64,000 bases of DNA from Arenicellales bacterium (GTDB lineage: Bacteria; Pseudomonadota; Gammaproteobacteria; BMS3Bbin11): the NCBI GenBank assembly GCA_048550195.1, contig JBLYYR010000111.1, forward strand, positions 10,224 to 74,223, given 5' to 3'. The notes under the pieces are model-generated. The model had not been told where the DNA came from. It did no database searches and saw nothing but the letters and a program-made list of their open reading frames with translations. Shown one piece after another: positions 4,279-58,592 of this stretch (within the stretch, counting starts at the first letter, position 1; every line of letters starts with the position of its first letter). Both the position numbers and the translations under genes were made by a program.

Positions 4279-6926
4279 TGGTTGCCCGAATAAAAGTCCT
4301 TGAGGTTGAACTTAGCCGCCCAATTAAAGACCTGGACGGCCTGCACGGCTATGCAAGCCTTCATGCACTGGTTCGCTGGAATAGCACTCCAGTGGGTTAT
4401 ATCGATGTGCCGCTTAGCAATGGGATCTGTACGGCTTCCGCTCTACGCGCTGCTGTCAATCGTGCGCATAGTCATAACCTGCTGCAGACTATGATTCGTC
4501 GACGTATTGATGAGCCTGTAAATGAAAACCCCAGTTTAGAAAAGAATGACAGCAAAGCCGCCTTGAACCTTGCAGCCATTGTCAAGAATCCATTGGTAAC
4601 TGTGGCTGTGTGTACACGAGATCGTGTCGAGCAACTAAAAGACTGTTTAAATTCGCTGACAAAACTTGCATACAGCAACATCGAAATCCTTGTCGTTGAT
4701 AATGCACCGGAAACTGATGAAACAAAGAAGCTTGTGCAGGCATCATTCCCCGGTTTTCGCTACGTGCTTGAACCGCGACCCGGTCTGGACTGGGCGCGTA
4801 ACCGCGCTATTGAAGAAGCCAATGGAGAAATAATCACCTACACCGATGATGATGTAATCGTCGATCCATTATGGATTGATGCTCTGGTGAAAGTTTTTCA
4901 GGATGACCCCGGTGTAATGGCGGTAACCGGCCTGGTAGCACCCTATGAGATGGACACTCATGCACAGATATTGTTTGAACGCTATGGCGGTTTTGGACGT
5001 GGTTTCAAACGGCGATGGTACCAGGTCGATAAGGTGAATCGAAAAGGGAAATCTTTCCATTATGGTGCCGGTCAGTTCGGAACCGGTGCCAATATGGCCT
5101 ATCGCAAAATAGTGTTTGAGAAGGTCGGTGTTTTCGATCCGGCACTTGATGTTGGGACGGTCACTAATGGCGGCGGTGATCTGGAAATGTTTTTTCGGGT
5201 ACTGGAAGAAGGCTACATGCTTGTCTATGAGCCATCCGCACTGGTCTGGCATCGGCATAGGAAAAGTATCGAAGAACTCCGCGTGCAGCTGACAAATCAT
5301 GGCATCGGTTTCTACTCTTTTCTTGTGCGCAGTGCCGAGGCCTATCCACAACATCGTTGGTCAATTTCCCGCTTTGGCCTGTGGTGGTTCTGGCACTGGA
5401 ATGTTCGACGTCTTTTAAAAAGCTTCATTATCACCCAGCGTGTACCGAGGGACATGATATTTGCTGAGTCAGGTGGAGCTCTAACAGGGTTGACCCGTTA
5501 CGCAAAGGCAAGGTCCAGAGCTGATGAAATTTCACATACTTATGTGAGTGAGAAGCAGTCAAGGATCAAAAATAATCGGCATCCCGATACATCGCTGCAG
5601 ATACATGATCACCCTAATACACCACAGACCAGAAAACCCACGGCTATTCGAACTGTGGATATTTCATGTCCGTTGCATGCTATCGATGATCTGTCGGAAT
5701 ACTCATCCTGTCGCATTTTTGTATTTCAGGGAGAGCGTTTACTGGGGAAGGTCGATATCAAAAGCACCTGGCAGTCAATTTCGCCAGCACGCTTGTGTGA
5801 TGCAATCACAGAGAAAATCGGCTGGAAACTAACGACACTTTTTTTGGGCAACGATTGTACACACCCGGAGTTACCGCTGATTGAGGGTGGCGCCCCTGCA
5901 CTCACTATACCTCGACTATCCAGATTATCATCTTCTATAAGTGTGTCGGTAGTGCTTGCCACTTTTGATCGACCAGAACAGCTAAGACAATGTCTGCAGT
6001 CATTGCAACATCAGGAAACACAGCGCAAGATAGAGATCGTGGTGGTGGATAACCATCCTTCGTCAGGGATGACATCGCCAGTAGTGGCAGAGTTTCCCGA
6101 AGTAGTTCTTGTAACAGAAGCTCGCAAGGGCCTTTCCTATGCAAGGAATGCGGGCTTCATCCATAGCAGTGGAGAGATAGTCGTAGCGACAGATGATGAT
6201 GTCATTATGCCTCCTCAATGGATAGAAAAATTGGTTGTACCATTTGAGCGAAATGATGTCGCCGCAGTAACCGGTAATGTTCTACCGCGTGAACTGGAAA
6301 CTGAATCTCAGTACTTTTTCGAGGCATATGGTGGGCTAGGACGGGGATTTGAAGACAGGGAAGCGGGACCAGCATGGTTTAGAAAATCACGAAGAAGAGC
6401 GGCCCCTACATGGCAACTTGGTGCTACTGCAAATGCAGCATTTAGAGCGGAAATTTTCAGAAACCCTGAAATTGGCTTGCTGGATGAAGCTTTGGGGGCA
6501 GGGATGCCTACCGGGTGCAGCGAGGACACATATCTTTTTTACAGAATAATTAAAGCTGGTTCGACTATTGTCTATAACCCGAATTCCTATGTATGGCATA
6601 CCCATCGGCGCGATAGAAATGCGTTGCGATCACAAATTTACAATTACAGTAAGGGGCATGTGGCCTATCATCTTACAACACTGCTACGCGATGGTGATCG
6701 TCGAGCGCTATTTCGTCTTTTTGTTGAGCTGCCGCAAACGTATATTAAGAGAGCATATCAACGATTGCGGGGTCGCAGTAATTACCCCATTTCACTCATA
6801 CTACTGGAGATTTGGGGTAACATGGTGGGTCCCTTCGCGCTCTGGCGATCTCGTCGCCGTGTTCGCCGTGAAGGTCGAAGCGAATTCCCGACAAGCGCTG
6901 ATCATCCTGTTTCTGATGTAGAATAA
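4278..6926 (+). CDS. Large 882-aa glycosyltransferase with two tandem GT2 domains
   Basis: There are two separate GT2 N-terminal signatures. The first is LVTVAVCTRDRVEQLKDCLNSL...VVDNAP...TDDDV and the second is ISVSVVLATFDRPEQLRQCLQSL...VVDNHP...TDDDV. The start codon overlaps the stop of the upstream gene. Confidence 0.75.
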   Translation: MVARIKVLEVELSRPIKDLDGLHGYASLHALVRWNSTPVGYIDVPLSNGICTASALRAAVNRAHSHNLLQTMIRRRIDEPVNENPSLEKNDSKAALNLAAIVKNPLVTVAVCTRDRVEQLKDCLNSLTKLAYSNIEILVVDNAPETDETKKLVQASFPGFRYVLEPRPGLDWARNRAIEEANGEIITYTDDDVIVDPLWIDALVKVFQDDPGVMAVTGLVAPYEMDTHAQILFERYGGFGRGFKRRWYQVDKVNRKGKSFHYGAGQFGTGANMAYRKIVFEKVGVFDPALDVGTVTNGGGDLEMFFRVLEEGYMLVYEPSALVWHRHRKSIEELRVQLTNHGIGFYSFLVRSAEAYPQHRWSISRFGLWWFWHWNVRRLLKSFIITQRVPRDMIFAESGGALTGLTRYAKARSRADEISHTYVSEKQSRIKNNRHPDTSLQIHDHPNTPQTRKPTAIRTVDISCPLHAIDDLSEYSSCRIFVFQGERLLGKVDIKSTWQSISPARLCDAITEKIGWKLTTLFLGNDCTHPELPLIEGGAPALTIPRLSRLSSSISVSVVLATFDRPEQLRQCLQSLQHQETQRKIEIVVVDNHPSSGMTSPVVAEFPEVVLVTEARKGLSYARNAGFIHSSGEIVVATDDDVIMPPQWIEKLVVPFERNDVAAVTGNVLPRELETESQYFFEAYGGLGRGFEDREAGPAWFRKSRRRAAPTWQLGATANAAFRAEIFRNPEIGLLDEALGAGMPTGCSEDTYLFYRIIKAGSTIVYNPNSYVWHTHRRDRNALRSQIYNYSKGHVAYHLTTLLRDGDRRALFRLFVELPQTYIKRAYQRLRGRSNYPISLILLEIWGNMVGPFALWRSRRRVRREGRSEFPTSADHPVSDVE

Positions 6927-6995
6927 GATGCTCAGTATTTGAGACTGATTATTTAAACTTACGTTGATCTGACTTGTACTTGCAAATGATTCCTT

Positions 6996-7766
6996 ATGAC
7001 TAATTCCCGTTTAATCTACTATCGTGACCTGATCCGTGAACTTGTGTTACGTGATATAAAAATTCGATATAAGCGGTCAGCCCTGGGCTTTGCGTGGACG
7101 CTGGCTAACCCATTGCTCTATCTCGTGGTTTTCTATTTTGTCTTCAAGATTGCGTTAGATATCAATATTCCCAGATTTGGAGTATTTGCCTTCACCGGGA
7201 TTCTAGCCTGGGGCTGGTTTCAATCGTCCCTGGCACAGAGTGCCGGGGCCATCGTTAGTAGTCGGGAGTTAGTCCGCTCCCCCGGTTTTTCCCCTGCTGT
7301 GCTGCCGATTGTGATTGTTACCAGCAACCTGGTGAATTTTCTTGTCGCACTTGTTGTGTTGCTGGCCTACCAGCTGATTGTGGGAACCGGCATAGGCTGG
7401 CAGGTCTGGCCTCTGCCTTTATTGATCGCCTTACAGTTTATTCTCACCTTGAGCATAGCTTATGTGATTGCCGCGTTAAACGTAGTGTTTCGGGATGTCG
7501 GACATCTTGTCGCTGTACTTTTACATTTAATGTTTTTCCTGACGCCAATTTTTTATGACGCCAGTATGATTCCGGACAAATTTCAGATGTTTTATCGCCT
7601 CAATCCTATGGTGCATTTTGTCGAATCCTATCGTAGCGTATTACTTAACGACACTGGCCTAAACTGGTGGCCAATCGCAATTATCGGGTGCTTTTCAATT
7701 CTCCTTTTATTCATCGGTAGAGCTCTGTTTATTAAACTTAGCTTCCGCTTTGCTGAAGAGATCTAA
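6996..7766 (+). CDS. wzm: ABC-2 type polysaccharide exporter permease (Wzm-like)
   Basis: The protein is a 256-aa polytopic membrane protein whose N-terminus reads LIRELVLRDIKIRYKRSALGFAWTLANPLL, typical of an ABC-2 permease. A Wzt-type ATPase follows immediately. Confidence 0.8.
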   Translation: MTNSRLIYYRDLIRELVLRDIKIRYKRSALGFAWTLANPLLYLVVFYFVFKIALDINIPRFGVFAFTGILAWGWFQSSLAQSAGAIVSSRELVRSPGFSPAVLPIVIVTSNLVNFLVALVVLLAYQLIVGTGIGWQVWPLPLLIALQFILTLSIAYVIAALNVVFRDVGHLVAVLLHLMFFLTPIFYDASMIPDKFQMFYRLNPMVHFVESYRSVLLNDTGLNWWPIAIIGCFSILLLFIGRALFIKLSFRFAEEI

Positions 7767-7769
7767 TTC

Positions 7770-9005
7770 ATGGAAAACCCCATCCAGGTTGTTGGTCTTC
7801 GTAAGGGTTTTGTACGCCACCATAAACTCAGGCCTCGCACCTTAAAGGAAGCCATTATTCGCAGGCAGTATTTACACAATAAGGATACTTACTTTCTTGC
7901 GCTGGATCAGGTTAGCCTTGAGGTCCATCCCGGTGAGATTGTCGGTATCATTGGCCGCAATGGAGCGGGAAAATCCACCTTGTTGCGGTTAATCGGTGGG
8001 GTAGGACGGCCAGATGAAGGGCATATTAAGGTTAATGGAAAAATAGGCGCCTTGCTTGAGCTTGGTGCCGGTTTTCATCCCGAATTGACCGGACGAGAAA
8101 ACGTATTCATTAATGGGATCATCGCGGGGCTGACACGAGACGAAGTAGCAGATCGCTTATTCGACATCGTAAACTTTGCCGAGCTGGAAGATTCAATCGA
8201 CAATCCGTTGCGTACATATAGTTCAGGTATGCAGCTTCGTCTTGCCTTTGCGGTAAGTGTGCACACATCCCCTGATGTCCTGCTTATCGATGAGGTACTT
8301 GCTGTCGGCGATATTGCATTCCAGCGCAAGTGCCTTGAGCGCATTGATATGTTTAAGCAAAGGGGCTGTGCCATCCTGATAGTCTCACATGATATAGTGC
8401 AGGTCAGAGATTTATGTGACCGGGTGATCTGGATGCGTGATGGGCGTGTCGTTGCTGCAGGCGAGCCACAGGATGTTGTTGATCAGTATGAAAACTCCAT
8501 GATGGCTGAGACAGAAAAGCGGGGTCAGGCCAGGGAAGCGAACTACCGTTCTCAATCGAGTCATGAATTAGAACTCAATGTGAATAGAGAAGGGACTATG
8601 GAAATGGAGATTCTTGGTGCCCAGCTGCTGGCCAGCAACAGGGAACCTGTAAGCGAATTGAAAAACGGTAATGCCCTGATAGTGGAGATTGCCTATGCAC
8701 CGAGCAAGCGCGTGCCATCACCGATATTTTCTGTAACGATTAGTGATGAAAAAGGGGAAATATGTCTTGATACCAACACGGCTCATCTGGAGATGCCCGA
8801 TATTGCAGACAATGGCACTGTACGCGTACATTTCGACAGGCTTGATTTAACAGCAGGCAAGTATTTTGTGGACGTTGGTGCCTACGCGGCTGACTGGGGG
8901 CGTGTTTACGATTACCATTGGCATGTATACCCCCTGGTTATACAGGACACTGATCCGCACAGAGGTGTTCTGAACCCACCGCATAAATGGGAATTATCCA
9001 GCTAG
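7770..9005 (+). CDS. wzt: Polysaccharide ABC exporter ATP-binding protein (Wzt-like) with a C-terminal carbohydrate-binding extension
   Basis: Walker A is GRNGAGKST, the ABC signature is YSSGMQLRLAF and Walker B is LLIDEVLAVGD. A roughly 150-aa C-terminal beta-rich extension, which is typical of Wzt proteins, follows. Confidence 0.8.
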   Translation: MENPIQVVGLRKGFVRHHKLRPRTLKEAIIRRQYLHNKDTYFLALDQVSLEVHPGEIVGIIGRNGAGKSTLLRLIGGVGRPDEGHIKVNGKIGALLELGAGFHPELTGRENVFINGIIAGLTRDEVADRLFDIVNFAELEDSIDNPLRTYSSGMQLRLAFAVSVHTSPDVLLIDEVLAVGDIAFQRKCLERIDMFKQRGCAILIVSHDIVQVRDLCDRVIWMRDGRVVAAGEPQDVVDQYENSMMAETEKRGQAREANYRSQSSHELELNVNREGTMEMEILGAQLLASNREPVSELKNGNALIVEIAYAPSKRVPSPIFSVTISDEKGEICLDTNTAHLEMPDIADNGTVRVHFDRLDLTAGKYFVDVGAYAADWGRVYDYHWHVYPLVIQDTDPHRGVLNPPHKWELSS

Positions 9006-15867: not shown

Positions 15868-16425
15868 TTACCGGGGCTTTTTCTTGCTATGTTGCCAGAG
15901 AACATCGGGCTGGCCGCTGGCTTTGTTAATAAAACGAGCCATGACAAATAACAGGTCAGACAGTCTATTCAGGTAGCCAGAGACAACTGTTGATACTTCA
16001 TCAGATCGTGACAGGCTAACTACATCTCGTTCGGCTCGTCGACACACGCTGCGGGCAACATGACTAATTGCAGCAGCCCTGCATCCGCCAGGCAGGATAA
16101 AATCCTCAAGTGGATCAAGCTCCTGGTTCATGCGGTCTAATTGCTGTTCAAGCCATGTTATTGATTCGGGTTGCATGATTTTTTGGTCAGGCATGCTCAA
16201 TTCACCTCCCATATCGAACAGGTGGTGTTGTATTTCTGTCAATAGGTCATGACTATCTTGATCAATTTCTTCACAAACGATTAGGCCAAGCAGGCTATTA
16301 AGTTCATCAATACTGCCTATAGCTGAAATGCGAAGGGAGTCCTTATCTATCCTCGATCCATCGCTGATTCCTGTTGTACCGTCATCGCCTGTACGTGTGT
16401 AGATTTTTGAAAGTCGGTAGCCCAT
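15868..16425 (-). CDS. PduO-type ATP:cob(I)alamin adenosyltransferase
   Basis: The N-terminus KIYTRTGDDGTTG...IGSIDELNSLLG is the canonical PduO-type adenosyltransferase N-terminus. Confidence 0.8.
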   Translation of the reverse strand: MGYRLSKIYTRTGDDGTTGISDGSRIDKDSLRISAIGSIDELNSLLGLIVCEEIDQDSHDLLTEIQHHLFDMGGELSMPDQKIMQPESITWLEQQLDRMNQELDPLEDFILPGGCRAAAISHVARSVCRRAERDVVSLSRSDEVSTVVSGYLNRLSDLLFVMARFINKASGQPDVLWQHSKKKPR

Positions 16426-16554
16426 GGTTTTTATCCTACTATGAGTTGGTCGTGATTCTTGTGCATGAGCAGAATGAGTTTCAATGGTTAACGGTATTAG
16501 ATCTTAGGCGTACGCATTTAGATAAAATACAATACGTATATCGTAACACGTAGT

Positions 16555-17310
16555 TTAGTCTGTTAAACGATATAGCACTTCTATTTCAGTATCTGCCGCC
16601 TGTATGGTCAAGTTGGATGCAACCTGGAGTCTGCCGATACTCTGTATTGTTTTTCGCGCATTTTCATCGAGCACCCTGTGCCCGGATGAGCGGGCGACGC
16701 GTACCTGATTTAGTGAGCCATCATCCTCAATGTGTAATGACAGGCCAACCAGACCTTCCCAACCCATGCGCCGTGCCAAACGCGGATAGGTGAATCGTGC
16801 TCTGATGATTTCTTTCAGCTGTTGTCTCAGGTGATTCAATGGAATATTTTTTACGTTAGCCGTTGCTGAATTAGCTGTTTTATCATCAGTTAATATTTCA
16901 GTATCATTGTTGCTGTGAACAGAAGATTTAACAGAATTACTTCTGGGAGAAATGTTTTTCTCAGGTTTAAGACTTTGCGTGCTATTTTTGTTGTCAGTGT
17001 CAACTTTACCGGTTGGTTTAACGGAAAGAGGTAAAGCCGTAGTCTTAATTTCAGTAACAGGTTTTTGTTGAGGTGCCTGTTGGATAATTTCCGGCTTATT
17101 CTCCGTTGCAGTTATTTGCTTTGAACCTGGAGACGATCGTGAGGAAATCACAGTAACCTGGAGTGGGCTTGCAAAGTCTACATATAGTTTATTTTCAGAT
17201 TTGTTATCTGGTATGGCAAGAAAAATTCCATGTGCCAGCACAGAAAGAAGTACAAACCACCCCAGTAAGGTAGTTGGCTTACTCGATTTTGCGGGATGGT
17301 TTTCTTGCAT
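16555..17310 (-). CDS. tonB: TonB family energy transducer
   Basis: The protein has an N-terminal TM anchor and a low-complexity linker. The C-terminal TonB domain reads ARFTYPRLARRMGWEGLVGLSLHIEDDGSL. Its start lies 4 bp from the btuB stop. Confidence 0.7.
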   Translation of the reverse strand: MQENHPAKSSKPTTLLGWFVLLSVLAHGIFLAIPDNKSENKLYVDFASPLQVTVISSRSSPGSKQITATENKPEIIQQAPQQKPVTEIKTTALPLSVKPTGKVDTDNKNSTQSLKPEKNISPRSNSVKSSVHSNNDTEILTDDKTANSATANVKNIPLNHLRQQLKEIIRARFTYPRLARRMGWEGLVGLSLHIEDDGSLNQVRVARSSGHRVLDENARKTIQSIGRLQVASNLTIQAADTEIEVLYRLTD

Positions 17311-17314
17311 ACTG

Positions 17315-19150
17315 TTAACGAATATTCATGTACCGTATATCAAAAAAGGCAGAACGACCTGCTGTGTTAAATCCATCGGCAAGTTGATATTCCTCATCGG
17401 TGATATTTTCCAGGCGCAGGCCAACATGAATCAGCTTGCCAAATGATTTGGTTGCTGAAAGGTTTAGTATGCTAAAGGCATCAAGAATGATGTCGCTGTA
17501 TGCGGAATCAGGGCGCTCACCGGTATATGTTAGCTGGGCGCTTGCTGAATAACTACTGCCGACATAGCGTCCTGTCAGGCTGTACTTTTCTTTTGCCCGG
17601 CGCGCCAGCTGCTTGTCTGTCGTCAGGTCTTTTGGGTCCTGGTAGGTTGCATCGGCATCAACCACGTACGGCCCTTTGCGAAACGAATAGACGAGTTCAA
17701 TACCACGAGTACGGGTTTCATCAATATTTTCATTACGTCCTGGAATTGGGCCATTGAATCCATCCGGGTCGACAAAGTTTATCAGGTTGTCAATTTCATT
17801 CTGGAAGACGCTTACCCGTGTGCGATGGACTGATGAAGGATTGACGCGAGCACTCAGTTCAATGCTTGTTGATGTTTCTGGTGCCAGATCCGGGTTGCCA
17901 CCGAAGCCAAAACGATCTGTGCTGCCTGGAGCACGGAAACCGGTAGCAAGGGATGCGATCAGCTTCGTTGCCTGGCTGGCCTGATAACCATAGCTCAGTT
18001 CACCGGTCGTTTTTCCATCAAAAGCACTATAGTCTGTGTAACGCAGGCCTGCGGTAATTTGATTGGCTCCAGATTCGAACTGATCCTGTACATAGATGCC
18101 AACGGTATCTGTGTCTTCATCAAACCCGGCACCGAAGGACAGTGATTTGGCATTTTCCCGATAGGTCTGTAAGCCGGCTGTTACAAGATTTGCGGTACCT
18201 ATGACGATATCATTCTGCCAGTCCAGTTCATAGCGGGTAGTTTTCAGGAAATCAGTTGATTGTCTTTGCTGGATATCATCTTTGAAGTAGCTGAGTTTAA
18301 TCTTACTTACCCAATTTTCCATAGCATTGATATTTGCCTTCAGAGACGAGGTTGAATTTGTATAATCCTGAGCAACCGGGGTTAGAAAGAAATCATAATA
18401 ATCTGTTCGCCCACGACTGCCAATGAATTGGAAATCAAGGTCTGTATTGCCAAAGGTATTGCCCAGTTTCAGGTTAATGCTGTCATTTTTGTACGGGCTG
18501 TCATTATCGGCTTCAGTGCGGGTGGGAAAACCGTCTGTACGAGCGCCAGATAAATCAATACCAAGACGAACATCACCATCTTTACGATGAAAGCTGGCAG
18601 AGAGTTCCTGAGTGTTGAAGCTGCCAAATCGCCAGCCCGCTTCTGTGGTCTCACCCTGACGGGTAAATATTTGAATGACGCCACCCAGTGCATCAGAACC
18701 ATAGAGGGTGGAACGAGGCCCCATAATGACTTCAATACGGTCAATCATATTCAGGGGGATATTCTGTATGGCTGCAACGCCTATAGTGCCCGGGTTGATC
18801 TTGACGCCATCAATCATGAGGAGAGTGTGATCACTTTCAGCACCACGGATAAAAATAGATGAAGTCTGACCTGGCCCACCATTGCTGGCAATATCTATAC
18901 CTGCTTTGGTGCGCAATACATCGGCGACAGAAAGTGCCTGAGACTCAATAATTTCCTTACGGTTTATCACGGTACTTGTTGCAAGTACCTGATCAGCATG
19001 GGTAGCTGTACGTGTTGCAGTGACAATGACCGGGTTATCAATATCGTTCGTATTAGTTTGATTCTGATCTGCCAGAGAGATAACAGGCGACAGTGTTAGA
19101 AGAGAGGTGATGGCAGCGGTAACCGCTGAAATACAGGTAATATTTTGCAT
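17315..19150 (-). CDS. btuB: TonB-dependent outer-membrane receptor, most likely the vitamin B12 transporter BtuB
   Basis: The protein has a signal peptide, a TonB box (DNPVIVTATR), a plug domain and then a beta-barrel. A cobalamin riboswitch lies in the 5' leader. Confidence 0.8.
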   Translation of the reverse strand: MQNITCISAVTAAITSLLTLSPVISLADQNQTNTNDIDNPVIVTATRTATHADQVLATSTVINRKEIIESQALSVADVLRTKAGIDIASNGGPGQTSSIFIRGAESDHTLLMIDGVKINPGTIGVAAIQNIPLNMIDRIEVIMGPRSTLYGSDALGGVIQIFTRQGETTEAGWRFGSFNTQELSASFHRKDGDVRLGIDLSGARTDGFPTRTEADNDSPYKNDSINLKLGNTFGNTDLDFQFIGSRGRTDYYDFFLTPVAQDYTNSTSSLKANINAMENWVSKIKLSYFKDDIQQRQSTDFLKTTRYELDWQNDIVIGTANLVTAGLQTYRENAKSLSFGAGFDEDTDTVGIYVQDQFESGANQITAGLRYTDYSAFDGKTTGELSYGYQASQATKLIASLATGFRAPGSTDRFGFGGNPDLAPETSTSIELSARVNPSSVHRTRVSVFQNEIDNLINFVDPDGFNGPIPGRNENIDETRTRGIELVYSFRKGPYVVDADATYQDPKDLTTDKQLARRAKEKYSLTGRYVGSSYSASAQLTYTGERPDSAYSDIILDAFSILNLSATKSFGKLIHVGLRLENITDEEYQLADGFNTAGRSAFFDIRYMNIR

Positions 19151-19229
19151 ATTATGTCCTTAGTGTACCCGCCGTACACATGAAGAAGTGAAAGGTTTCC
19201 CGCAGGTCATGATTCGATAGAAGTTGACT

Positions 19230-19450
19230 TGCCGGGGTTTAGTCTCAGGCTGGTTTCCGGGCTTGTGAGCATTGAAGTCGTCTGCCTTCCCATGCGATTA
19301 GAACGATTAAATACATTCATACTGCACAGTGGCTGCTTAGAAGACTTCCCTCACTTACCGTTGCGGGGGCAGCGCCGGAATTGAACCGGCTTCCCATTTC
19401 ATCCTACTGGATGGTATCCAGTAGAAATCCTGAGGCTGGCGACTTTAAGT
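19230..19450 (-). promoter_or_regulatory. Cobalamin (B12) riboswitch in the btuB leader
   Basis: The reverse complement of 19321-19400 reads GGGAAGCCGGTTCAATTCCGGCGCTGCCCCCGCAACGGTAAG...GCCACTG. These are the conserved cobalamin-riboswitch core and the B12 box. GGGAAGGC lies downstream. Confidence 0.85.
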
Positions 19451-19590
19451 GATTGGGAGGTAAGTTTCAAGCTTCAGGACAAATGATGCAGAAAGCTAAC
19501 TTTATATTACATTCTTAATCCTTGATCTATAATCTTAACAGGGTGGCGGCGAACCCAGAGTCACGGCATAATCTGTTTAAGGAGAATGAC

Positions 19591-20118
19591 ATGTCCCGGA
19601 TTAATCAGATACAAATTCGCTTTTCTTCAATTGAAGACCGTATCGTCCTGCGGTTAAATACTGAAGATGCTTCAGAGTTTCGCTTCTGGATAACCCGGCG
19701 TTACTCAAAAGTACTTGTAGCGGCCTTGTTAGAGCTTTTACATTCGTCGGAAGAAGTTCAGGAATATTCAGAACAGAAAAATCAGAATGCGGTGATGACA
19801 TTTCAGCATGAAGATGCCTTGTCTAAAGCTGATTTTGCCAGGTCTTTCGAGTCTCAGCCGAAGAATTTGCCGCTTGGAAATGAGCCGGTGCTACTTAGTA
19901 AATTAACGGTGAAGCAAACACCTGACGGTAACCCGATGTTGTGCATGTACCCTGAGCAGGGATCAGGTATCGACCTGGCCCTGCAACAGCAACTGCTCCA
20001 TTCGATAAGTAAGCTGTTTGCTGATGCACTGATAGAGGCAGACTGGGATGTAAACTTCCTGCTCCCTGAGAGTAATACCGATATACGGGAAGCAGAAAAA
20101 CCAGTGCTGTTGAATTAA
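19591..20118 (+). CDS. Hypothetical protein of 175 aa
   Basis: A strong RBS, AAGGAG, lies 7 nt upstream of the ATG at 19591. The ORF-track start at 19522 is probably too far upstream. I recognised no domain. Confidence 0.45.
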   Translation: MSRINQIQIRFSSIEDRIVLRLNTEDASEFRFWITRRYSKVLVAALLELLHSSEEVQEYSEQKNQNAVMTFQHEDALSKADFARSFESQPKNLPLGNEPVLLSKLTVKQTPDGNPMLCMYPEQGSGIDLALQQQLLHSISKLFADALIEADWDVNFLLPESNTDIREAEKPVLLN

Positions 20119-20123
20119 TAGAA

Positions 20124-20468
20124 CTACCCGGTTTTCATTACGGGCTGTGTTTCGTTGTTGAGGACAGCAGTTGAGACTTCACAGAGCTGATTCATCAGGC
20201 TTACTTTGCAAATGTCAGCATCATTTTGAATCAACAGGGTTGCCCGGGTAGCTTCGAGCATAGAAATGGTTATTTCAGGGTCTATGCATGCATCAAGGTG
20301 TCCGCAACTATTCTTTTTATAGAGATCTCGAACAAGTTTGGTAACGAATTTATGATGCACTGCATCCTCAGCAAGAAAAAAACGAATTTCATTCGCAGAA
20401 TAGACCACAGGGATCTGATGCATGCCAATTTGCTCTGCCAGTAGCTGAATATATTTCCTGAATGTCAT
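20124..20468 (-). CDS. Hypothetical protein of 114 aa
   Basis: The ORF is convergent with the previous gene, 5 bp apart. I recognised no motif. Confidence 0.35.
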   Translation of the reverse strand: MTFRKYIQLLAEQIGMHQIPVVYSANEIRFFLAEDAVHHKFVTKLVRDLYKKNSCGHLDACIDPEITISMLEATRATLLIQNDADICKVSLMNQLCEVSTAVLNNETQPVMKTG

Positions 20469-20644
20469 TTCCTATCCGTTGCCTGAGAAACGTTTAATAA
20501 ATGCTTTTTGTTCTGATTAAGTCTAAACCCAACCCCGATATTTTCAAGTCTTGATTTAAAGTATATTGTATTTTCAGGGAATCACAGGTACCTCGTTAAC
20601 GGGTTTTATCCCCTAATAACTACTCCAGTTCAGCAATTCATACT

Positions 20645-21739
20645 ATGATGTGCAGTTCTAGAAATATGAATACCGTAAATAACAAGCTCCCACCAGAAAA
20701 AATTGATCGCCTGTCTAGATGGCGAGTGCTGGTATCGGCTGCCGTTTCGATATTGATCCTTTTCCTGCTCTGGTGGATTGTTTCCTCAGGAAAGCAGTTA
20801 AAGGATGCGCATACTATTTCAGATGTTTTACAGAACACATCCTGGTGGCTGGCTTCCTTTTATATCCTTACAACGATTTCGCAAACTCTGCTCAGAGCCA
20901 TGCGTTATCGATCTTTGCTTAAAGCAGATGAGAACAGCCCGGTACCGGGCATCACTTTTATGTTTTTTGTTACATTGGCTCGCAACATGTTTGTCGACAT
21001 GGTGCCCGCAAGAATTGGAGAAGCGAGTTATGTCCTGATGCTAAACCGCTCTGTTCATGTGCCGGTTTCAGCCTGTCTTTCGACTCTGTTTATCAGTGTA
21101 GTCCTTGACGTTATGGCGCTGGCTGTTCTATTGTTTGTGCTGGTGCTTGCAAGCATCATTACAGCCTCACAGTCCGGAATTTCCCTTGGCCATGCCTTGT
21201 TGGCTACGTCGTTACTGGTATTTGTGGCAGTCCTCATTATTTATATGGCAGTACCGTTGAGCCAATGGTTTTACCGGATGATTGAATTTACCAGGATAAA
21301 GCTTCTGCAACGTTTTGCTCGATTTTTGATAGAAGTTGGCATGTCAATCCGACGCGTACAGACAAGAGAGCTTTTGTCGCTGACTATGGCACAATCGATC
21401 GGAATTCGTGTGTTCAAATACAGTGGGCTCTATATTCTGTTTGTTGCTGTTACAACCGCCAGCTTTCCCGAGTTTTCAGCGTTGCCCTGGTGGCAGGTAT
21501 TACCCGCCTTCATTTCTGCAGAAGCAGCTGCCAGTTTACCTTTGCCGACGTTTATGAGTTTTGGCACCTATGAAGGAGGAGGTCTGCTGGCCTTTTCAAT
21601 GCAGGGTTTTGCCGCTGCAGATACTTTAATTGTTATGTTTGTCATACATCTGATCTCCCAGCTGGTGGATTACACGCTCGGTGGCCTTGGCTTGCTGGGC
21701 TTTTTTCTGCAGAAGGGTGAGAATAGGTGCCAGGCTTGA
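20645..21739 (+). CDS. Polytopic membrane protein of the lysylphosphatidylglycerol-synthase-TM-like (flippase-like, UPF0104) family
   Basis: The 364-aa protein has about 8 TM helices. The RWRVLVSAAVSILILFLLWW N-terminus and the overall organisation resemble the LPG_synthase_TM family. The assignment is tentative. Confidence 0.5.
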   Translation: MMCSSRNMNTVNNKLPPEKIDRLSRWRVLVSAAVSILILFLLWWIVSSGKQLKDAHTISDVLQNTSWWLASFYILTTISQTLLRAMRYRSLLKADENSPVPGITFMFFVTLARNMFVDMVPARIGEASYVLMLNRSVHVPVSACLSTLFISVVLDVMALAVLLFVLVLASIITASQSGISLGHALLATSLLVFVAVLIIYMAVPLSQWFYRMIEFTRIKLLQRFARFLIEVGMSIRRVQTRELLSLTMAQSIGIRVFKYSGLYILFVAVTTASFPEFSALPWWQVLPAFISAEAAASLPLPTFMSFGTYEGGGLLAFSMQGFAAADTLIVMFVIHLISQLVDYTLGGLGLLGFFLQKGENRCQA

Positions 21740-21754
21740 AAGAGGCAAAGAGCT

Positions 21755-22762
21755 ATGAGTAACAGGCGTATTGTATTGATTGTTATTTCCGTTGTGGTGG
21801 TAGTGGCGGTGGCGACGGCGGGTTTTCTGCGTTGGCAGCTTAAGCAGGGTCGGCGTACCCCACCATCTGCAGGTATGTCTGTCATGATGGAGAAAGTGGC
21901 CCAGGCAGCAGAATTGCCAAGTGGGTTTATTGTCTGGAGCTCAAACCGTTTTGGTAATCACGACATACTTAAAATGGACTTGCCGGAAAGAAAAATTTCA
22001 CGTTTGACCACACATCCCCATACTGAGTATTTTCCACGAATCTCACCAGATGGAAGATATGTTGTATTTTCCCGCTCACAAAAACCCTGGGTATCGCAGC
22101 GTAATCAGGAACTATGGGACGTAATACTACTCGATCTTCAGACAGGGGAGGAACGGGAACTGGCCAAAAATGCCAATACCCCCACCTGGTCTATCGATGG
22201 AAAAAAGGTATATTTTCAGCGCAATGTCATGAACCTGGCTGAAATTAATGTCGAAACAGGAGAGGAGCGCATTCTTTTCACCAGCGGCAATGGCGACGTC
22301 AAAAAGAGCGCAGGGTTGCAAACACCGGCATACAACACGCATAGCAATAAAATGGCCGTAACGTTGCGCTATGGCCAGCACATGACGGCCATTGTCGATA
22401 TGTACGGGAATCTCAGGAGAATCTCAGACGGCTGTCAGCTTACCTGGAGCAGGGATGCGAGCTTTCTTTACTATGTGGATTATGGTGGCAAGATGAAAAA
22501 TGCCTTTTATCTTTATGACCCTGCGACTGGCAAGTCCACACCGTGGCTGGATATGCCTGGTGAATTCAGTCATGAGTATTTTCCAAAACTGTCAAATGAT
22601 GAAAAATATCTAGTTTTCGCCGCCAGCAAAGGCGGTCATGAGCATGATAGTGCTGATTATGAGATATTCCTCTGGCAGGTGGGCGCACCAGCAGAATCGG
22701 CGGTTCGCCTGACTTTTCATACGGGTAATGATAACTGGCCGGATGTGTTTTTGATGGATTAG
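21755..22762 (+). CDS. Membrane-anchored TolB-like beta-propeller (PD40 repeat) protein
   Basis: The protein has an N-terminal TM helix. Repeated ...SPDGRYVVFS.../...SIDGKKVYFQ.../...SRDASFLYYV.../...SNDEKYLVFAA... blades follow. The gene starts 16 bp after the upstream gene. Confidence 0.6.
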   Translation: MSNRRIVLIVISVVVVVAVATAGFLRWQLKQGRRTPPSAGMSVMMEKVAQAAELPSGFIVWSSNRFGNHDILKMDLPERKISRLTTHPHTEYFPRISPDGRYVVFSRSQKPWVSQRNQELWDVILLDLQTGEERELAKNANTPTWSIDGKKVYFQRNVMNLAEINVETGEERILFTSGNGDVKKSAGLQTPAYNTHSNKMAVTLRYGQHMTAIVDMYGNLRRISDGCQLTWSRDASFLYYVDYGGKMKNAFYLYDPATGKSTPWLDMPGEFSHEYFPKLSNDEKYLVFAASKGGHEHDSADYEIFLWQVGAPAESAVRLTFHTGNDNWPDVFLMD

Positions 22763-22967
22763 TCTCTGGTTTCTTTTATTATTTTGCTCGAATTGAACTG
22801 GGCTTGTCGCAGTTCATGCGCGAGGTGTTCAGTACCTTGATCAGGGTTGCGACAAAGAGTTTAATCGACGAGAATTATTACAGCATGATACAACATATCA
22901 ATCATTTGACCGCACTGAGGAACCTCTGATCAATTCATGAACTCGTATCTTACGTTTAAAATATCCA

Positions 22968-23073
22968 GTCTTTTTCGTTGAAAATCTTCGCAATAGCTAG
23001 CTATTACGTGCAATTTCCGCCTCAAAACTGAAAATTTTAAATCGCAATCTACTTCGTCCAGAATTAATTAGAG
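22968..23073. repeat. Copy A of a roughly 110-bp dispersed intergenic repeat with a palindromic core
   Basis: The sequence ...ttgaaaatcttcgcaatagctagctattacg...ccagaattaattagag is shared with 58403-58510. It contains a perfect 14-bp palindrome, aatagctagctatt, at 22992-23005. Confidence 0.5.
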
Positions 23074-23098
23074 ATTCCCTAAGGTATTACTCCATAAA

Positions 23099-23983
23099 AT
23101 GAAGTGGCGAAAAAGAAAACAAAGCACAAACGTTGATGACAGAAGAAGTAGCACTGGCGGTGTACGTAGAGCTTTGCCTTCCGTTGGAACAATTCTTTTT
23201 TTCTGGCCGATAATCAAAAAACTGCTGCATTCAAAGCTTGGCCTCGCCATATTGGGTATTGGTGCAGTGGTTTATTTTGGTAATTTTATTGATTTCTCTT
23301 CTTTGATGGGGGGTGGCAGTTCCACACCTGTTAATGAAGAACTGGATAATGAGCAGGCTGCATTTATTAAAACAGTACATGCCGACACTGAAGCAATCTG
23401 GTCAAAGATCTTTGCACAGGCAGAAGCGCGCTATCCCTCTCCGACTCTGGTGTTGTATCGCGGGTCGACAACAAGTGGCTGTGGACCGGCCAGTTCTCGC
23501 ATGGGACCGTTCTATTGCCCTGAAGATAGAAAAATCTATGTTGATCTGGGCTTCTTCGAGGATTTGAAACGTCAGCATGGGGCAGGGGGAGACTTTGCAC
23601 AAGCCTATGTGCTCGCACACGAAATTGGCCATCATGTGCAATACCTGGAAGGTACACTGGATAAGGTGCAAAGAGCAAAACAACAGGTATGGGGAGAGGC
23701 CAAAAAGAATCAACTGCAAGTGCGTGTTGAGCTGCAGGCTGATTGCTATGCAGGTGTCTGGGCGCATCACGCTCATGCACAGTTTGATATCCTGGAAGAA
23801 GGCGACCTCGAAGAAGCAATGGTTGCTGCGGCTTCCATCGGTGATGACAGGATGCAAAAACAGTCACAGGGTTTCGCTATACCCCACACCTTTACTCATG
23901 GCAGTTCCAAACAACGTGTAGAGTGGTTTGCCAGAGGTGTTAAGAATGGTGATTTACAGGATTGTAATACCTTTGGAAGGTAA
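23099..23983 (+). CDS. YpfJ-family putative neutral zinc metallopeptidase
   Basis: The N-terminus reads KWRKRKQSTNVDDRRSSTGG...TM, followed by HEIGHHVQ, which is a HExxH zinc site. This N-terminus is typical of YpfJ proteins. Confidence 0.8.
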   Translation: MKWRKRKQSTNVDDRRSSTGGVRRALPSVGTILFFWPIIKKLLHSKLGLAILGIGAVVYFGNFIDFSSLMGGGSSTPVNEELDNEQAAFIKTVHADTEAIWSKIFAQAEARYPSPTLVLYRGSTTSGCGPASSRMGPFYCPEDRKIYVDLGFFEDLKRQHGAGGDFAQAYVLAHEIGHHVQYLEGTLDKVQRAKQQVWGEAKKNQLQVRVELQADCYAGVWAHHAHAQFDILEEGDLEEAMVAAASIGDDRMQKQSQGFAIPHTFTHGSSKQRVEWFARGVKNGDLQDCNTFGR

Positions 23984-24011
23984 CACCAATCTCCCAAATA
24001 TAGAAAAAAAC

Positions 24012-24890
24012 TCAAATACTATCCAACAGGCCAATCATGGCCTTCGTAGCATTAGACAAAGTCATGTCATTATGCGTCACATATCCAAGTTTTCGACGAA
24101 GATCCATGTTTTTTATCTGCAATTTAACGACAGTTTCATCAAGCATGGTGTCCGGTATGATGGTCCATCCAAGGCCGATGCTGGCCATCATTTTGTTGGT
24201 TTCAAGAAAGTTGGTCGACAGACCGATACGCAGTCTGTAACCCGTTAATGCAAGCTTTTCCTCCAGCAATGCCCGGGTGTAGGTGTTGACGCCAGGCAGT
24301 ATCGCCTCGTGTCTGGCAAGTTCTTCTACAGCGACGGAATCTTTGCCTGCCAGCTCATGCATTTTGCCGACTACTAGAGCCAGCGGGTCATCCCAGACCT
24401 GTGTCGCGGTGAGTGATTGAGGTGTGCTGGAGGGTAGGGTGATGATGGCCATTTCCAGTCGGCCGCTTTCAACCCCCTGAACACCGTCTTCCGAGTCCAC
24501 AAAATGCAATGACAACTCGACATCCGGGTATCGCTTCGTGTATTGGCGTAATACCGGCGGTAAGCGGTGCAGGCCGATATGGTGTGAGGTACCCAGGCTT
24601 AGGCTGCCTGTAATCTCTTGCTTCATATTGTCAGCAGTTTTACGTAAATTACTGAAGGAAATTAGCATGCTCTCAGCTAATGGAAGCAACTTATGCCCGG
24701 TATCCGTCAATCGGACATTTCTTCCTATACGGTCGAATAATGGGCTGCCAAGCTGTAATTCCAGCGCAGCAACGCGTTTACTGATAGCCGGTTGTGTTAG
24801 ATGCAGGCTGTTTGCTGCAGCGGTAAAGGAACCATACTTATTTATGGCAACAAAGGCCTTGAGCTGTGATTCATCCATGTGCGTTCTCAA
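24012..24890 (-). CDS. LysR-family transcriptional regulator, divergent from leuC
   Basis: The HTH reads FVAINKYGSFTAAANSLHLTQPAISKRVAALE. It is followed by a LysR substrate-binding fold. Confidence 0.85.
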   Translation of the reverse strand: MRTHMDESQLKAFVAINKYGSFTAAANSLHLTQPAISKRVAALELQLGSPLFDRIGRNVRLTDTGHKLLPLAESMLISFSNLRKTADNMKQEITGSLSLGTSHHIGLHRLPPVLRQYTKRYPDVELSLHFVDSEDGVQGVESGRLEMAIITLPSSTPQSLTATQVWDDPLALVVGKMHELAGKDSVAVEELARHEAILPGVNTYTRALLEEKLALTGYRLRIGLSTNFLETNKMMASIGLGWTIIPDTMLDETVVKLQIKNMDLRRKLGYVTHNDMTLSNATKAMIGLLDSI

Positions 24891-25023
24891 TCAATTATTT
24901 TTGAATCCTATCCTTGACTCATTCCAAAATAGAATTGATATTATAAAAATGATGAATTTATGTAATTTATAACCTGTGTCATAATTTCCTGCAACCTAAA
25001 TGATGAAAAGTGGAGTGATTCAG

Positions 25024-26430
25024 ATGGCTGGCAAAACCCTGTATGACAAGTTGTGGGATAGTCATGTAGTTCGGCAGGAAGATAATACTGCTTTACTTTA
25101 TATTGATCGCCATCTGGTTCATGAAGTGACATCACCGCAGGCCTTTGAAGGTTTACGCCTAGCGGGGCGCCGTCTTTGGCGTCCAGCAGCAAACCTGGCA
25201 ACTCCGGATCACAACGTGCCGACAACCGAGCGTCAGAAAGGGATAGTTGACCCTGTATCACGTTTACAGGTGGAGACGCTTGATCAAAATTGTGTGGATT
25301 TTCGTATTACCGAGTTTGGTATGAATGATCCGCGTCAGGGCATCGTTCATGTTATCGGGCCGGAGCAGGGTGCCACCTTGCCGGGCATGACGGTAGTCTG
25401 TGGCGATTCGCACACCTCTACACACGGTGCCTTTGCTGCTTTGGCCATGGGTATTGGTACTTCTGAAGTAGAACATGTGCTGGCAACGCAATGTTTGATT
25501 CAGAAAAAGGCAAAGAACATGCGTGTGTCGGTAGAAGGAGAGGTGTCTGACGGCATAACAGCGAAGGATATAGTGCTTGCCATTATTGAGAAAACAGGGA
25601 CAGCCGGCGGCACAGGATACACTATTGAATTTGCCGGATCGGCTATTCGAGCATTGAGTATGGAAGGTCGCATGACCCTGTGCAATATGACGATAGAAGC
25701 CGGTGCCCGGGCAGGGCTGGTCGCGGTTGATGAGAAGACTATCGACTATGTGCGTGGACGCCCTTATTCTCCCGCTGAAGAATACAGGGAGCAGTCGGAG
25801 GCGTACTGGCAAGGCCTGCATTCAGATGCGGACGCTGTATTTGATAAAGAGGTTTTTCTCAATGCCGCCGATATCCGGCCGCAGGTTAGCTGGGGAACAT
25901 CGCCTGAAATGGTCGTGTCGATAGGCGACAGCGTGCCTGATCCTCAACAGGAGGCTGATCCGGTAAAACGCGAAGGCATGATCAATGCGCTGGCCTATAT
26001 GGGACTGGAGCCAGGGGTGGCGATATCAGATATTTCACTGGATAAGATATTTATTGGTTCATGCACCAACTCCCGTATCGAAGATATTCGTGCCGCCGCT
26101 GAAGTTGTCCGGGGCCGTAAGCTTGCTGCTACCATCAGATTGGCGATAGTGGTGCCCGGTTCTGGCCTGGTCAAGGCACAGGCTGAACAGGAAGGGCTGG
26201 ACAGGGTGTTTACTGAAGCCGGCTTTGAATGGCGGGACCCCGGTTGTTCAATGTGTCTGGCGATGAATGCAGACCGACTTCAAGAAGGAGAGCGATGTGC
26301 CTCTACCTCGAACAGGAATTTTGAGGGTCGTCAGGGCCGCGGCGGCAGGACACATCTTGTTTCACCGGCATTGGCTGCCGCTGCTGCTATTGCCGGGCAT
26401 TTTATAGACCCGGCATCACTGGAGAACTGA
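25024..26430 (+). CDS. leuC: 3-isopropylmalate dehydratase large subunit
   Basis: The start [14 protein letters not shown] and the aconitase-family motifs match leuC. A GGAG RBS lies 9 nt upstream of 25024. Confidence 0.9.
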
Positions 26431-58510: not shown

Positions 58511-58592
58511 GTGCCCTGCACTGTAAAAAAGCTTTTGGCCATGTTAATTTCTGCTATTGCCGTATTTTTTCTTAACTTAAAAGACCCGCTGT

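What the first reader, a model, noticed from the sequence alone, without database searches (positions are those of the whole stretch)
20645..23983. Three-gene envelope module: LPG-synthase-TM-like membrane protein, membrane-anchored TolB-like propeller and YpfJ zinc peptidase
A flippase-like (UPF0104 / LPG_synthase_TM-like) polytopic protein is followed 16 bp later by a TM-anchored periplasmic PD40/TolB-like beta-propeller. After a 336-bp spacer that contains the dispersed repeat comes a YpfJ-type HExxH metallopeptidase with the same N-terminal TM topology. None of the three has a defined function. Their co-orientation suggests an uncharacterised envelope lipid-modification or surface-remodelling pathway. 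UPF0104 proteins normally pair with glycosyltransferases, not with propellers.
Basis: inference. Interest (0 to 1): 0.5.

Follow-up and report, generated by a model that had tools for sequence, protein, structure and literature searches.

The report
Split flippase-like protein with periplasmic propeller
The first two genes are the two halves of a membrane protein that most other bacteria make as one piece, an MprF-type lipid-translocator domain joined to a TolB-like propeller, whose role is unstudied but probably lies in building cell-surface sugars; the third gene, a zinc peptidase, is an unrelated neighbour.

Summary
All three ORFs exist where stated, and the family calls are correct: PF03706, a PD40/TolB-like propeller, and YpfJ.

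The three-gene module is only partly real. Genes 1 and 2 are tightly coupled.
- Starting from the propeller (80 species-level loci), 62 have both domains in one uninterrupted ~690-aa ORF and 6 have adjacent genes.
- Starting from the membrane protein (68 informative metagenome loci), 52 are fused and 11 adjacent.
- A propeller tree places the window's two-gene form in one derived clade, so it is most simply a gene fission.
- YpfJ lies near the pair in 0 of 164 loci, and the closest syntenic relatives lack it.

Elsewhere the fused gene usually sits among sugar-pathway genes: an ArnC-like polyprenyl-phosphate GT2, GT-C-like proteins, a second PF03706 paralogue, a WcaF-like acetyltransferase, an AsnB-like amidotransferase and an epimerase.

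Best reading: a translocator or presenter of a lipid-linked polar head group, coupled to a periplasmic binding or processing propeller. The substrate is unknown. I found no paper describing this architecture.

The parts
20645..21739 (+). g1: polytopic inner-membrane protein, PF03706 (LPG_synthase_TM / PplT / UPF0104). It corresponds to MprF flippase subdomain 1 (TM1-TM8 with two half-spanning helix pairs). The true start codon may be 20645, 20648 or 20666.
21740..21754 (+). 15-nt g1-g2 junction with an AAGAGG ribosome-binding site. No promoter or terminator was predicted here.
   Evidence: Sequence and scan. In relatives the junction is an 8-nt ATGAGTAA overlap or a 4-nt ATGA overlap.
21755..22762 (+). 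g2: N-terminal TM helix (residues ~3-30) followed by a six-bladed PD40/TolB-type beta-propeller. It is the C-terminal half of the fused family. Signature motifs are WSSNRxGNH, SHEYFP, GHEHDxADYEIFLW and GNDxWPD.
22782..22873 (+). Long imperfect hairpin just downstream of g2, without a T-run. It may mark the 3' end of the g1-g2 transcript.
   Evidence: RNA fold -35 kcal/mol, z -2.58 against shuffles. It is not called by the terminator scan. Weak evidence only.

Best explanation
g1 and g2 together are the split, two-gene form of a widespread ~690-aa inner-membrane protein that nobody has characterised.

Architecture. The N-terminal part has the MprF-type lipid-translocator fold, but only subdomain 1: eight TM helices that in MprF form the cytoplasm-facing head-group cavity. 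One further TM helix follows, which here is g2's N-terminal anchor. It carries a six-bladed TolB-type propeller to the periplasmic side.

Expression (inferred). The two genes are co-transcribed and translationally coupled, and the products reassemble in the membrane.

Proposed mechanism (inferred). The membrane domain binds a lipid-linked polar head group, most likely a polyprenyl-phosphate sugar or a glycolipid made at the cytoplasmic face. It moves that head group to the outer leaflet. The propeller, held directly over the exit, binds or processes the head group or its acceptor. This would be one step in building or decorating a surface glycoconjugate.

YpfJ (g3) is an independent housekeeping-type Zn peptidase that happens to occupy a variable slot between g2 and the LysR-leuCDB block.

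What is shown and what is inferred.
- Shown: the fusion and adjacency statistics, both folds, colinearity, the absence of YpfJ from related loci, and the neighbour gene families.
- Inferred: the complex, the periplasmic location of the propeller, the substrate class, and the propeller's role.
For: 1. Fusion and adjacency.
- Propeller-first census of one genome per species: 284 species have a relative and the best 80 were fetched. Of these, 62 are fused in one stop-free ORF, 6 are adjacent and co-oriented, 9 lack g1 and 3 lie at a contig edge.
- g1-first census of metagenomes: 52 fused, 11 adjacent, 5 without a propeller, 11 at a contig edge.
- Independent gene callers annotate ~690-aa proteins with PF03706 + PD40. 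There are 510 such hits, including cultured Desulfobulbus, Desulfofustis, Desulforhopalus, Desulfogranum, Electrothrix and Electronema.
- Of the 150 best representatives from an exhaustive g1-profile search, 60 are at least 600 aa long.

2. Colinearity. g1 residues 27-356 align to P0195 residues 14-340, and g2 residues 30-333 to P0195 residues 383-689. The linker corresponds to g2's TM helix.

3. Fission. The split forms make one clade of 18 plus a second small one. Parsimony on the tree gives a fused root.

4. Translational coupling. The junction is an 8-nt or 4-nt stop/start overlap in relatives, and 15 nt with an SD sequence in the window.

5. Folds.
- g1 matches MprF only. Its helix order is the TM1, 2, 3a/3b, 4-6, 7a/7b, 8 order of RtMprF subdomain 1, whose TM8 ends in the cytoplasm. 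One more TM therefore puts the propeller in the periplasm.
- g2 is a TolB-type propeller.

6. A functional cavity. Invariant charged or polar residues R113, N114, D118, R123, E126, D155, R255, K258, Y259, E293, E310, H335, Q339 and Y343 lie in the helices that line cavity C in MprF.

7. Genomic context. Among 97 loci with at least 6 kb of flank, 59 carry glycan-pathway partners: WcaF-like acetyltransferase 39, second PF03706 37, ArnC-like GT2 29, AsnB-like 27, other GT2 22, epimerase 18, PMT_2/DUF2142 GT-C 13 and Bac_transf 12.

8. Precedent. PF03706 proteins have been predicted to act as flippases in glycosylation pathways next to GT2 and PMT/STT3-like enzymes (PMC5898192). GpgF sits in a glycolipid operon (PMC12713373).
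Against: - No substrate, activity or interaction was measured.
- The window itself has no glycosyltransferase next to the pair. The nearest are three GT2 genes plus Wzm/Wzt about 12 kb upstream. The pathway context is therefore borrowed from other taxa, and 38 of 97 loci show none of these partners.
- g1 lacks MprF subdomain 2, which forms most of the periplasmic cavity P in MprF. Full translocation by this domain alone is not assured.
- Many clusters carry a second, more canonical PF03706 paralogue (C1), which could be the real flippase.
- A sister clade has the propeller without an adjacent g1 (L012-L020), and a few g1 homologues lack a propeller (L004, L099, L109, L121, L145, L150).
- g2's TM helix has more K/R after it than before it, and it contains an A-x-A-like site (ATA|G). 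Its topology and possible cleavage are therefore not settled.
Confidence: 0.6

Rival explanations
1. Catalytic-propeller model. The membrane domain flips or exposes a modified membrane lipid, and the propeller is a periplasmic enzyme (hydrolase, lyase or transferase, perhaps metal-dependent) that removes or remodels its head group. This would parallel the MprF(LpiA)-AcvB and PA0920-PA0919 synthase/flippase plus periplasmic hydrolase pairs that keep lipid levels in balance.
For: - Family-specific invariant His/Glu/Asp-rich motifs (SHEYFP, GHEHDxADYE, GNDxWPD) persist even in the most divergent pair, L167, where the generic PD40 motif WSSNR has changed.
- By strand order they all fall in A-B and C-D loops of blades 5, 6 and 1, which is one face of the propeller (inference).
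- The lpiA-acvB operon is a precedent for a flippase plus periplasmic enzyme (PMC13197417).
Against: - The best structural matches are non-enzymatic binding propellers: TolB, Atu1656 and YWTD/LDLR.
- The HEH stretch aligns with an ordinary PD40 A-B loop of TolB, and no PDB enzyme is recovered with it.
- No aminoacyl-PG synthase domain is present or nearby.
- The neighbours are glycan genes, not phospholipid genes.
Confidence: 0.22
2. TolB-like tether model. The propeller is a protein-binding module that contacts a periplasmic or outer-membrane partner, such as a Pal-like lipoprotein, a GT-C enzyme or a secretion component. The PF03706 domain serves mainly as a membrane anchor or lipid sensor, and a separate paralogue (C1) does the flipping.
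For: - A second canonical PF03706 gene lies immediately upstream of the fused gene in 24 loci, and lies near the lone propellers in L012, L019 and L020.
- g1 lacks MprF subdomain 2.
Against: - The intramembrane polar residues of g1 are invariant across split and fused forms, which argues for a working ligand cavity rather than a passive anchor.
- There is no tol-pal context, and g2 has no TolB N-terminal domain.
- No conserved candidate partner protein recurs across all contexts.
Confidence: 0.13
3. One reading: g1, g2 and YpfJ form one three-gene envelope pathway.
For: The three genes are co-oriented. All three products are predicted to be membrane-anchored with extracytoplasmic domains.
Against: - YpfJ homologues occur in 0 of 164 related loci.
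- Syntenic relatives have CSD + NYN genes or nothing between g2 and the LysR gene.
- g3 is separated from g2 by a 336-nt spacer with a stable hairpin and a repeat element that is also found upstream of ileS.
Confidence: 0.04

Closest known systems
MprF / LpiA flippase domain, subdomain 1 (PF03706; 'PplT' domain; PDB 6lvf, 9j8q)
   Different: g1 has no aminoacyl-PG synthase domain and no subdomain 2 (TM9-14). There is no detectable sequence match to MprF chains in the PDB, even at E<=10. The partner is a periplasmic propeller rather than a cytoplasmic GNAT synthase. This architecture is not mentioned in the PplT survey.
TolB (Tol-Pal system)
   Different: g2 scores 52 bits against the 343-bit TIGR02800 cutoff. 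It has no N-terminal alpha/beta TolA-binding domain. It is membrane-anchored or fused to a polytopic domain, and there are no tolQRA/pal neighbours.
Three-component extracytoplasmic glycosylation systems (ArnC/GtrB/PgfS-type GT2 + flippase + GT-C; PMC11127046)
   Same: In many other taxa the fused gene lies next to an ArnC-like polyprenyl-phosphate GT2 and GT-C-like membrane proteins. A putative flippase sits between a cytoplasmic and a periplasmic step.
   Different: The flippase candidate is PF03706, not GtrA or ArnE/F. It carries an extra periplasmic propeller that has no counterpart in the known systems. The window's own copy has no such neighbours.
lpiA-acvB / PA0920-PA0919 (MprF plus periplasmic aminoacyl-PG hydrolase; PMC13197417)
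   Same: An MprF-type translocator genetically coupled to a periplasmic protein that acts on the translocated lipid.
   Different: AcvB/VirJ-type hydrolases are not propellers. No synthase domain is present here, and no hydrolase signature was found in g2.
GpgF / HexF / archaeal AglD C-terminal domain (stand-alone or GT-fused PF03706 flippase candidates; PMC12713373, PMC5898192)
   Same: PF03706 proteins encoded with glycosyltransferases and proposed to flip glycolipids or lipid-linked sugars.
   Different: None of these carries or pairs with a propeller, and their flippase activity is itself unproven.

Membership tests
PF03706 LPG_synthase_TM (UPF0104 / PplT) - g1 | Match to the Pfam model above its gathering score | tested here: met
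   65.4 bits against 33.4, covering profile positions 4-302 of 302.
PF03706 LPG_synthase_TM (UPF0104 / PplT) - g1 | MprF subdomain-1 fold: TM1, 2, 3a/3b, 4-6, 7a/7b, 8 | tested here: met
PF03706 LPG_synthase_TM (UPF0104 / PplT) - g1 | Lipid translocation activity | not testable with these tools
   Needs reconstitution and flipping or scrambling assays.
MprF (bifunctional aminoacyl-PG synthase/flippase) - g1 | C-terminal aminoacyl-PG synthase (DUF2156/GNAT) domain and subdomain 2 (TM9-14) | tested here: not met
   The 364-aa protein ends after TM8. PF03706 is its only Pfam hit. No synthase gene lies in the neighbourhood.
TolB (TIGR02800) - g2 | Equivalog score cutoff | tested here: not met
   52.4 bits against a cutoff of 343.15, and only profile positions 336-387 match.
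TolB (TIGR02800) - g2 | N-terminal alpha/beta domain plus tol-pal operon context | tested here: not met
   The model shows helix 3-30 followed directly by the propeller. The neighbours are a btuB-type receptor/tonB and LysR-leuCDB.
TolB (TIGR02800) - g2 | Six-bladed PD40 beta-propeller fold | tested here: met
S9 peptidases (DPP IV / prolyl oligopeptidase / acylaminoacyl peptidase) - g2 | Alpha/beta-hydrolase catalytic domain after the propeller | tested here: not met
   The 335-aa protein ends with the last blade. DPPIV_N scores only 18 bits, below its cutoff.
YpfJ / KPN_02809 neutral Zn metallopeptidase - g3 | NF050010 equivalog and PF04228 thresholds, plus the HExxH motif | tested here: met
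   338 bits against 250, and 340 bits against 23.2. HEIGH is present in the translation.
Proposed g1-g2-g3 module | Co-occurrence of YpfJ with the g1/g2 pair in other genomes | tested here: not met
   0 of 85 and 0 of 79 loci have a YpfJ hit within the 6-10 kb of flank requested (less where the contig ends sooner).
PF03706-propeller fused family (unnamed) | Both domains colinear, fused or immediately adjacent and co-oriented, with the signature motifs SHEYFP, GHEHDxADYEIFLW and GNDxWPD | tested here: met
Three-component glycosylation system (GT2 + flippase + GT-C) | Polyprenyl-phosphate GT2 and GT-C encoded next to the flippase candidate | tested here: inconclusive
   Not present next to the pair in the window. 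Among 97 related loci, 29 have an ArnC-like GT2 and 13 a PMT_2 GT-C.

The most novel reading that the evidence does not exclude
The PF03706(subdomain 1)-TM-propeller protein is a new kind of envelope machine. A minimal MprF-type translocator would have its periplasmic exit cavity completed by the propeller's own TM helix and juxtamembrane motif. It would hand a lipid-linked head group directly to a periplasmic propeller that has its own conserved His/Glu/Asp site. That would be a self-contained 'flip-and-process' or 'flip-and-deliver' unit, used by sediment bacteria (Desulfobulbales including cable bacteria, Arenicellales, Acidiferrobacterales, and Verrucomicrobiota/Kiritimatiellia) to make a surface glycoconjugate or modified lipid not yet described.
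Probability: 0.3. Interest if true: 0.65.

Novelty: new variant of a known kind. Interest (0 to 1): 0.45.

Why it matters
PF03706/PplT domains are among the few candidates for general bacterial lipid flippases. Outside MprF, their substrates are almost entirely unknown.

A subfamily that is permanently wired to a periplasmic propeller, and usually embedded in polyprenyl-phosphate sugar and GT-C clusters, gives a concrete and testable handle on what a non-MprF PplT domain moves and what happens to the cargo on the outer face.

The family occurs in several hundred species, including culturable Desulfobulbales and the cable bacteria, whose envelopes are of special interest.

For annotation: these proteins are currently labelled 'lysylphosphatidylglycerol synthase domain-containing' or 'Tol biopolymer transport system component'. 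Both labels mislead.

For this scan: the finding corrects a three-gene hypothesis to a two-gene split-protein unit, and removes YpfJ from it.

Tried and rejected
- Sequence search of the g1 profile against PDB chains, at E<=1 and again at E<=10: no hit. Only fold comparison links g1 to MprF.
- PDB search with the C-terminal propeller segment carrying the SHEYFP and GHEHD motifs, looking for a metal or catalytic site (for example the H-x-H of oligogalacturonate lyase). Only weak PD40-loop matches to TolB and a chance baseplate hit came back.
- AFDB50 fold search: the library was not available.
- Rfam scan of 19000-25200: only the cobalamin riboswitch upstream of the TonB-dependent receptor, and nothing in the g2-g3 spacer.
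- Promoter and terminator scan: counts are at chance level. The one terminator-like site near the g1-g2 junction lies inside the g1 coding sequence.
- Spacer repeat: only two copies in the window and none in 164 related loci. I treat it as unrelated to the module.
- PADLOC defence models: no hits for g1, g2, g3 or the two upstream hypothetical genes. A defence-system reading is rejected.
- Literature searches for PF03706, UPF0104, and 'flippase-like domain' with 'propeller' found no description of this architecture.
- Chance adjacency is rejected on the fusion statistics.
- A sequencing frameshift as the cause of the split is rejected. The split is shared by about 18 independent assemblies, each with its own start codon.
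Full report
**1. Observation**

The three ORFs are present on the + strand exactly where stated: 20645-21739 (364 aa), 21755-22762 (335 aa) and 23099-23983 (294 aa).

The family calls hold.
- g1 matches PF03706 LPG_synthase_TM at 65.4 bits (cutoff 33.4).
- g2 matches PD40 at 58 bits. It matches only a fragment of the TolB equivalog model (52 bits against a cutoff of 343).
- g3 is a full-length YpfJ/KPN_02809 Zn peptidase (PF04228 340 bits; NF050010 338 bits against 250) with an HEIGH motif.

The g1-g2 gap is 15 nt and contains an AAGAGG ribosome-binding site. The g2-g3 spacer is 336 nt. A hydropathy scan shows one N-terminal TM segment in g2 and one in g3.

The 'dispersed repeat' is a two-copy element of about 110 nt and about 78% identity. 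The second copy sits between ribF and ileS. It is absent from all related loci.

The window comes from an Arenicellales MAG: a database protein from one is 100% identical to g2.

**2. Are the genes linked elsewhere?**

*Census starting from the propeller.* I scanned one genome per species with a profile of g2 homologues. 284 species encode a relative, and the best 80 loci were fetched. I then searched their ORFs with HMMs built from g1 and g2 homologues.
- In 62 loci both domains lie in a single stop-free ORF.
- In 6 loci, the closest relatives, they are adjacent co-oriented genes as in the window.
- In 9 loci there is no g1-type gene within reach.
- 3 loci are cut by a contig end.

*Census starting from g1.* The reverse scan used metagenome contigs. 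It gave 52 fused, 11 adjacent, 5 without a propeller and 11 uninformative. That is 63 of 68 informative loci with the propeller attached or adjacent.

*Independent support.*
- Public gene calls agree. A search with one fused ORF returned 510 proteins of about 690 aa carrying PF03706 + PD40. They include cultured Desulfobulbus alkaliphilus, Desulfofustis limnaeus, Desulfofustis glycolicus, Desulforhopalus vacuolatus and Desulfogranum marinum, and the cable bacteria Electrothrix and Electronema.
- An exhaustive profile search found 361 representatives (50%-identity clusters) at E<=1e-30. Of the best 150, 60 are of fused length.
- g1 and g2 map colinearly onto the two halves of a fused protein. 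The linker corresponds to g2's TM helix.

*Origin of the split.* On a neighbour-joining tree of propeller domains, the window-type split genes form one clade of 18. This clade is sister to a clade in which the propeller stands alone. A second small split clade (L005, L107) arose separately. Parsimony puts the fused state at the midpoint root. The two-gene form is therefore most simply a fission.

Many split relatives keep an 8-nt (ATGAGTAA) or 4-nt (ATGA) stop/start overlap. This points to translational coupling.

*YpfJ.* It was found in none of the 164 loci. In the syntenic relatives (btuB-type receptor/tonB upstream, LysR-leuCDB downstream), the slot between g2 and the LysR gene holds CSD + NYN genes or nothing. 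A stable hairpin follows g2. g3 is therefore an unrelated neighbour.

**3. What the proteins are**

Across 51 split and fused homologues at 39% mean identity, 22 columns are invariant. Most are charged or polar residues within these helices. This argues that the ligand cavity is intact.

In MprF, TM8 ends in the cytoplasm. One extra TM helix would therefore put the propeller in the periplasm. This is an inference. g2's flanking charges and an A-x-A-like site leave some doubt about its topology and possible cleavage.

It is not TolB. It has no N-terminal domain, no tol-pal context, and a score far below the cutoff.

Family-specific invariant motifs (SHEYFP, GHEHDxADYEIFLW, GNDxWPD) sit in loops of blades 5, 6 and 1. 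By strand order these lie on one face of the propeller, which suggests a binding or catalytic site. I could not test this.

**4. Context and likely mechanism**

In other taxa the fused gene is usually embedded in glycan-pathway clusters. Among 97 loci with at least 6 kb of flank, 59 carry at least one of the partners below.

| Partner | Loci |
|---|---|
| WcaF-like acetyltransferase | 39 |
| Second, more canonical PF03706 paralogue | 37 |
| ArnC/PgfS-like polyprenyl-phosphate GT2 | 29 |
| AsnB-type amidotransferase | 27 |
| Other GT2 | 22 |
| NAD-dependent epimerase | 18 |
| PMT_2/DUF2142 GT-C | 13 |
| Initiating phosphoglycosyl transferase (Bac_transf) | 12 |

The typical Desulfobulbales order is acetyltransferase, PF03706 paralogue, fusion gene, ArnC-like GT2, then further GT2s and Bac_transf.

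This is the gene content of extracytoplasmic 'three-component' glycosylation (PMC11127046). It also matches the earlier prediction that COG0392 proteins flip lipid-linked sugars (PMC5898192).

My best reading is that g1+g2 reassemble into the ancestral protein. The membrane domain takes up a lipid-linked polar head group and exposes it at the outer leaflet. The tethered propeller then binds or processes it, or binds its acceptor.

My confidence differs by claim.
- That g1 and g2 form a conserved functional unit: about 0.9.
- That g3 is not part of it: about 0.9.
- The substrate class and the propeller's role: below 0.5.

The window's copy has no adjacent glycosyltransferase. The nearest are GT2 x3 plus Wzm/Wzt at 2-9 kb in the window.

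**5. Rivals**

- The propeller is an enzyme acting on a flipped lipid, by analogy with lpiA-acvB (PMC13197417). The invariant His/Glu/Asp motifs favour this. No enzyme-specific match was found.
- The propeller is a TolB-like protein tether and the C1 paralogue is the real flippase. Fold similarity and the lack of subdomain 2 favour this. The conserved cavity residues argue against it.
- The three-gene model is refuted for g3.
- Chance adjacency is excluded.

**6. Comparison with what is known, and novelty**

g1 is a bona fide PF03706 member but not an MprF. g2 has a TolB-type fold but is not TolB. g3 is an ordinary YpfJ, and a homologue of it has in-vitro Zn-protease activity (PMC3269727).

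The PplT survey lists 148 architectures but does not mention a propeller, TolB or PD40 partner. Full-text searches found no paper on this architecture. NCBIfam has no model for the fused protein.

I class it as a new variant of a known kind: a widespread, unnamed and uncharacterised PF03706-propeller family, present in this window in split form.

Interest is moderate at 0.45. The finding is solidly established and testable, but the function remains inferred.

Noticed in passing
window 15868-19448 (- strand): A cobalamin riboswitch (RF00174, 110 bits) at 19231-19448 precedes a TonB-dependent receptor (17315-19150), a TonB-C protein (16555-17310) and a cob(I)alamin adenosyltransferase (15868-16425). 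This is a B12 uptake and salvage unit directly upstream of the finding. It is conserved in the syntenic relatives L001 and L002.
   Followed up: partly
window 22970-23080 and 58408-58517: A two-copy element of about 110 nt and about 78% identity, with a palindromic core (AATAGCTAGCTATT in the first copy). One copy lies just upstream of ypfJ and the other between ribF and ileS. It is absent from all 164 related loci. It could be a shared operator or promoter element, or a small mobile repeat.
   Followed up: partly
window 19522-20118 (+) and 20124-20468 (-): Two hypothetical genes (198 and 114 aa) with no Pfam, NCBIfam or PADLOC match. Both are conserved immediately upstream of g1 in the split-gene clade (clusters N9 in 15 loci and N7 in 19 loci). 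The second is divergently transcribed from g1. Because the whole region is syntenic in that clade, a functional link can be neither shown nor excluded.
   Followed up: partly
window 2070-9005 (+): Three GT2 glycosyltransferase genes, one an 882-aa double-GT2, followed by Wzm (ABC-2 permease) and Wzt (ATPase with a Wzt_C domain). This looks like an ABC-transporter-dependent O-antigen or polysaccharide cluster about 12 kb upstream of g1.
   Followed up: partly
window 22782-22873 (+): A long imperfect hairpin (-35 kcal/mol, z -2.6) about 20 nt after the g2 stop codon, without a T-run. It matches no Rfam family.
   Followed up: partly
L005 10098-11951 and L167 2484-4325: In the second, independent split clade the g1-g2 pair (4-nt ATGA overlap) is followed in both loci by a gene for a Ser/Thr protein kinase fused to an FGE-sulfatase domain, and then by a Phenol_MetA_deg outer-membrane protein gene on the opposite strand.
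   Followed up: no
L004 and L013 (same MAG, GCA_013152415 / JAADGI01): One genome carries a lone g1-type gene (next to a Big_5 protein) and, on another contig, a lone propeller next to acetyltransferase, AsnB-like and epimerase genes. The two halves can therefore persist unlinked in one genome.
   Followed up: partly
L012-L085, many loci (e.g. L026 7115-8900): A WcaF-like hexapeptide acetyltransferase (C2) and a second PF03706 paralogue (C1, TIGR00374-type) form their own conserved co-oriented pair. It is usually immediately upstream of the fused gene in Desulfobulbales and on the opposite strand in the gammaproteobacterial loci.
   Followed up: partly
L165 849-3027: A more distant stand-alone g1 homologue (34% identity, no propeller) overlaps by 11 nt with an upstream LPS heptosyltransferase (Glyco_transf_9) gene. 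This hints that neighbouring PF03706 subfamilies work with LPS-core enzymes.
   Followed up: no
window slot 22763-24011 compared with L001/L002/L006-L011: The interval between g2 and the divergent LysR gene is a variable slot. It holds ypfJ here, a cold-shock protein gene plus an NYN-domain gene in L001 and L002, other small ORFs in L006 and L007, and nothing in L008, L010 and L011.
   Followed up: partly
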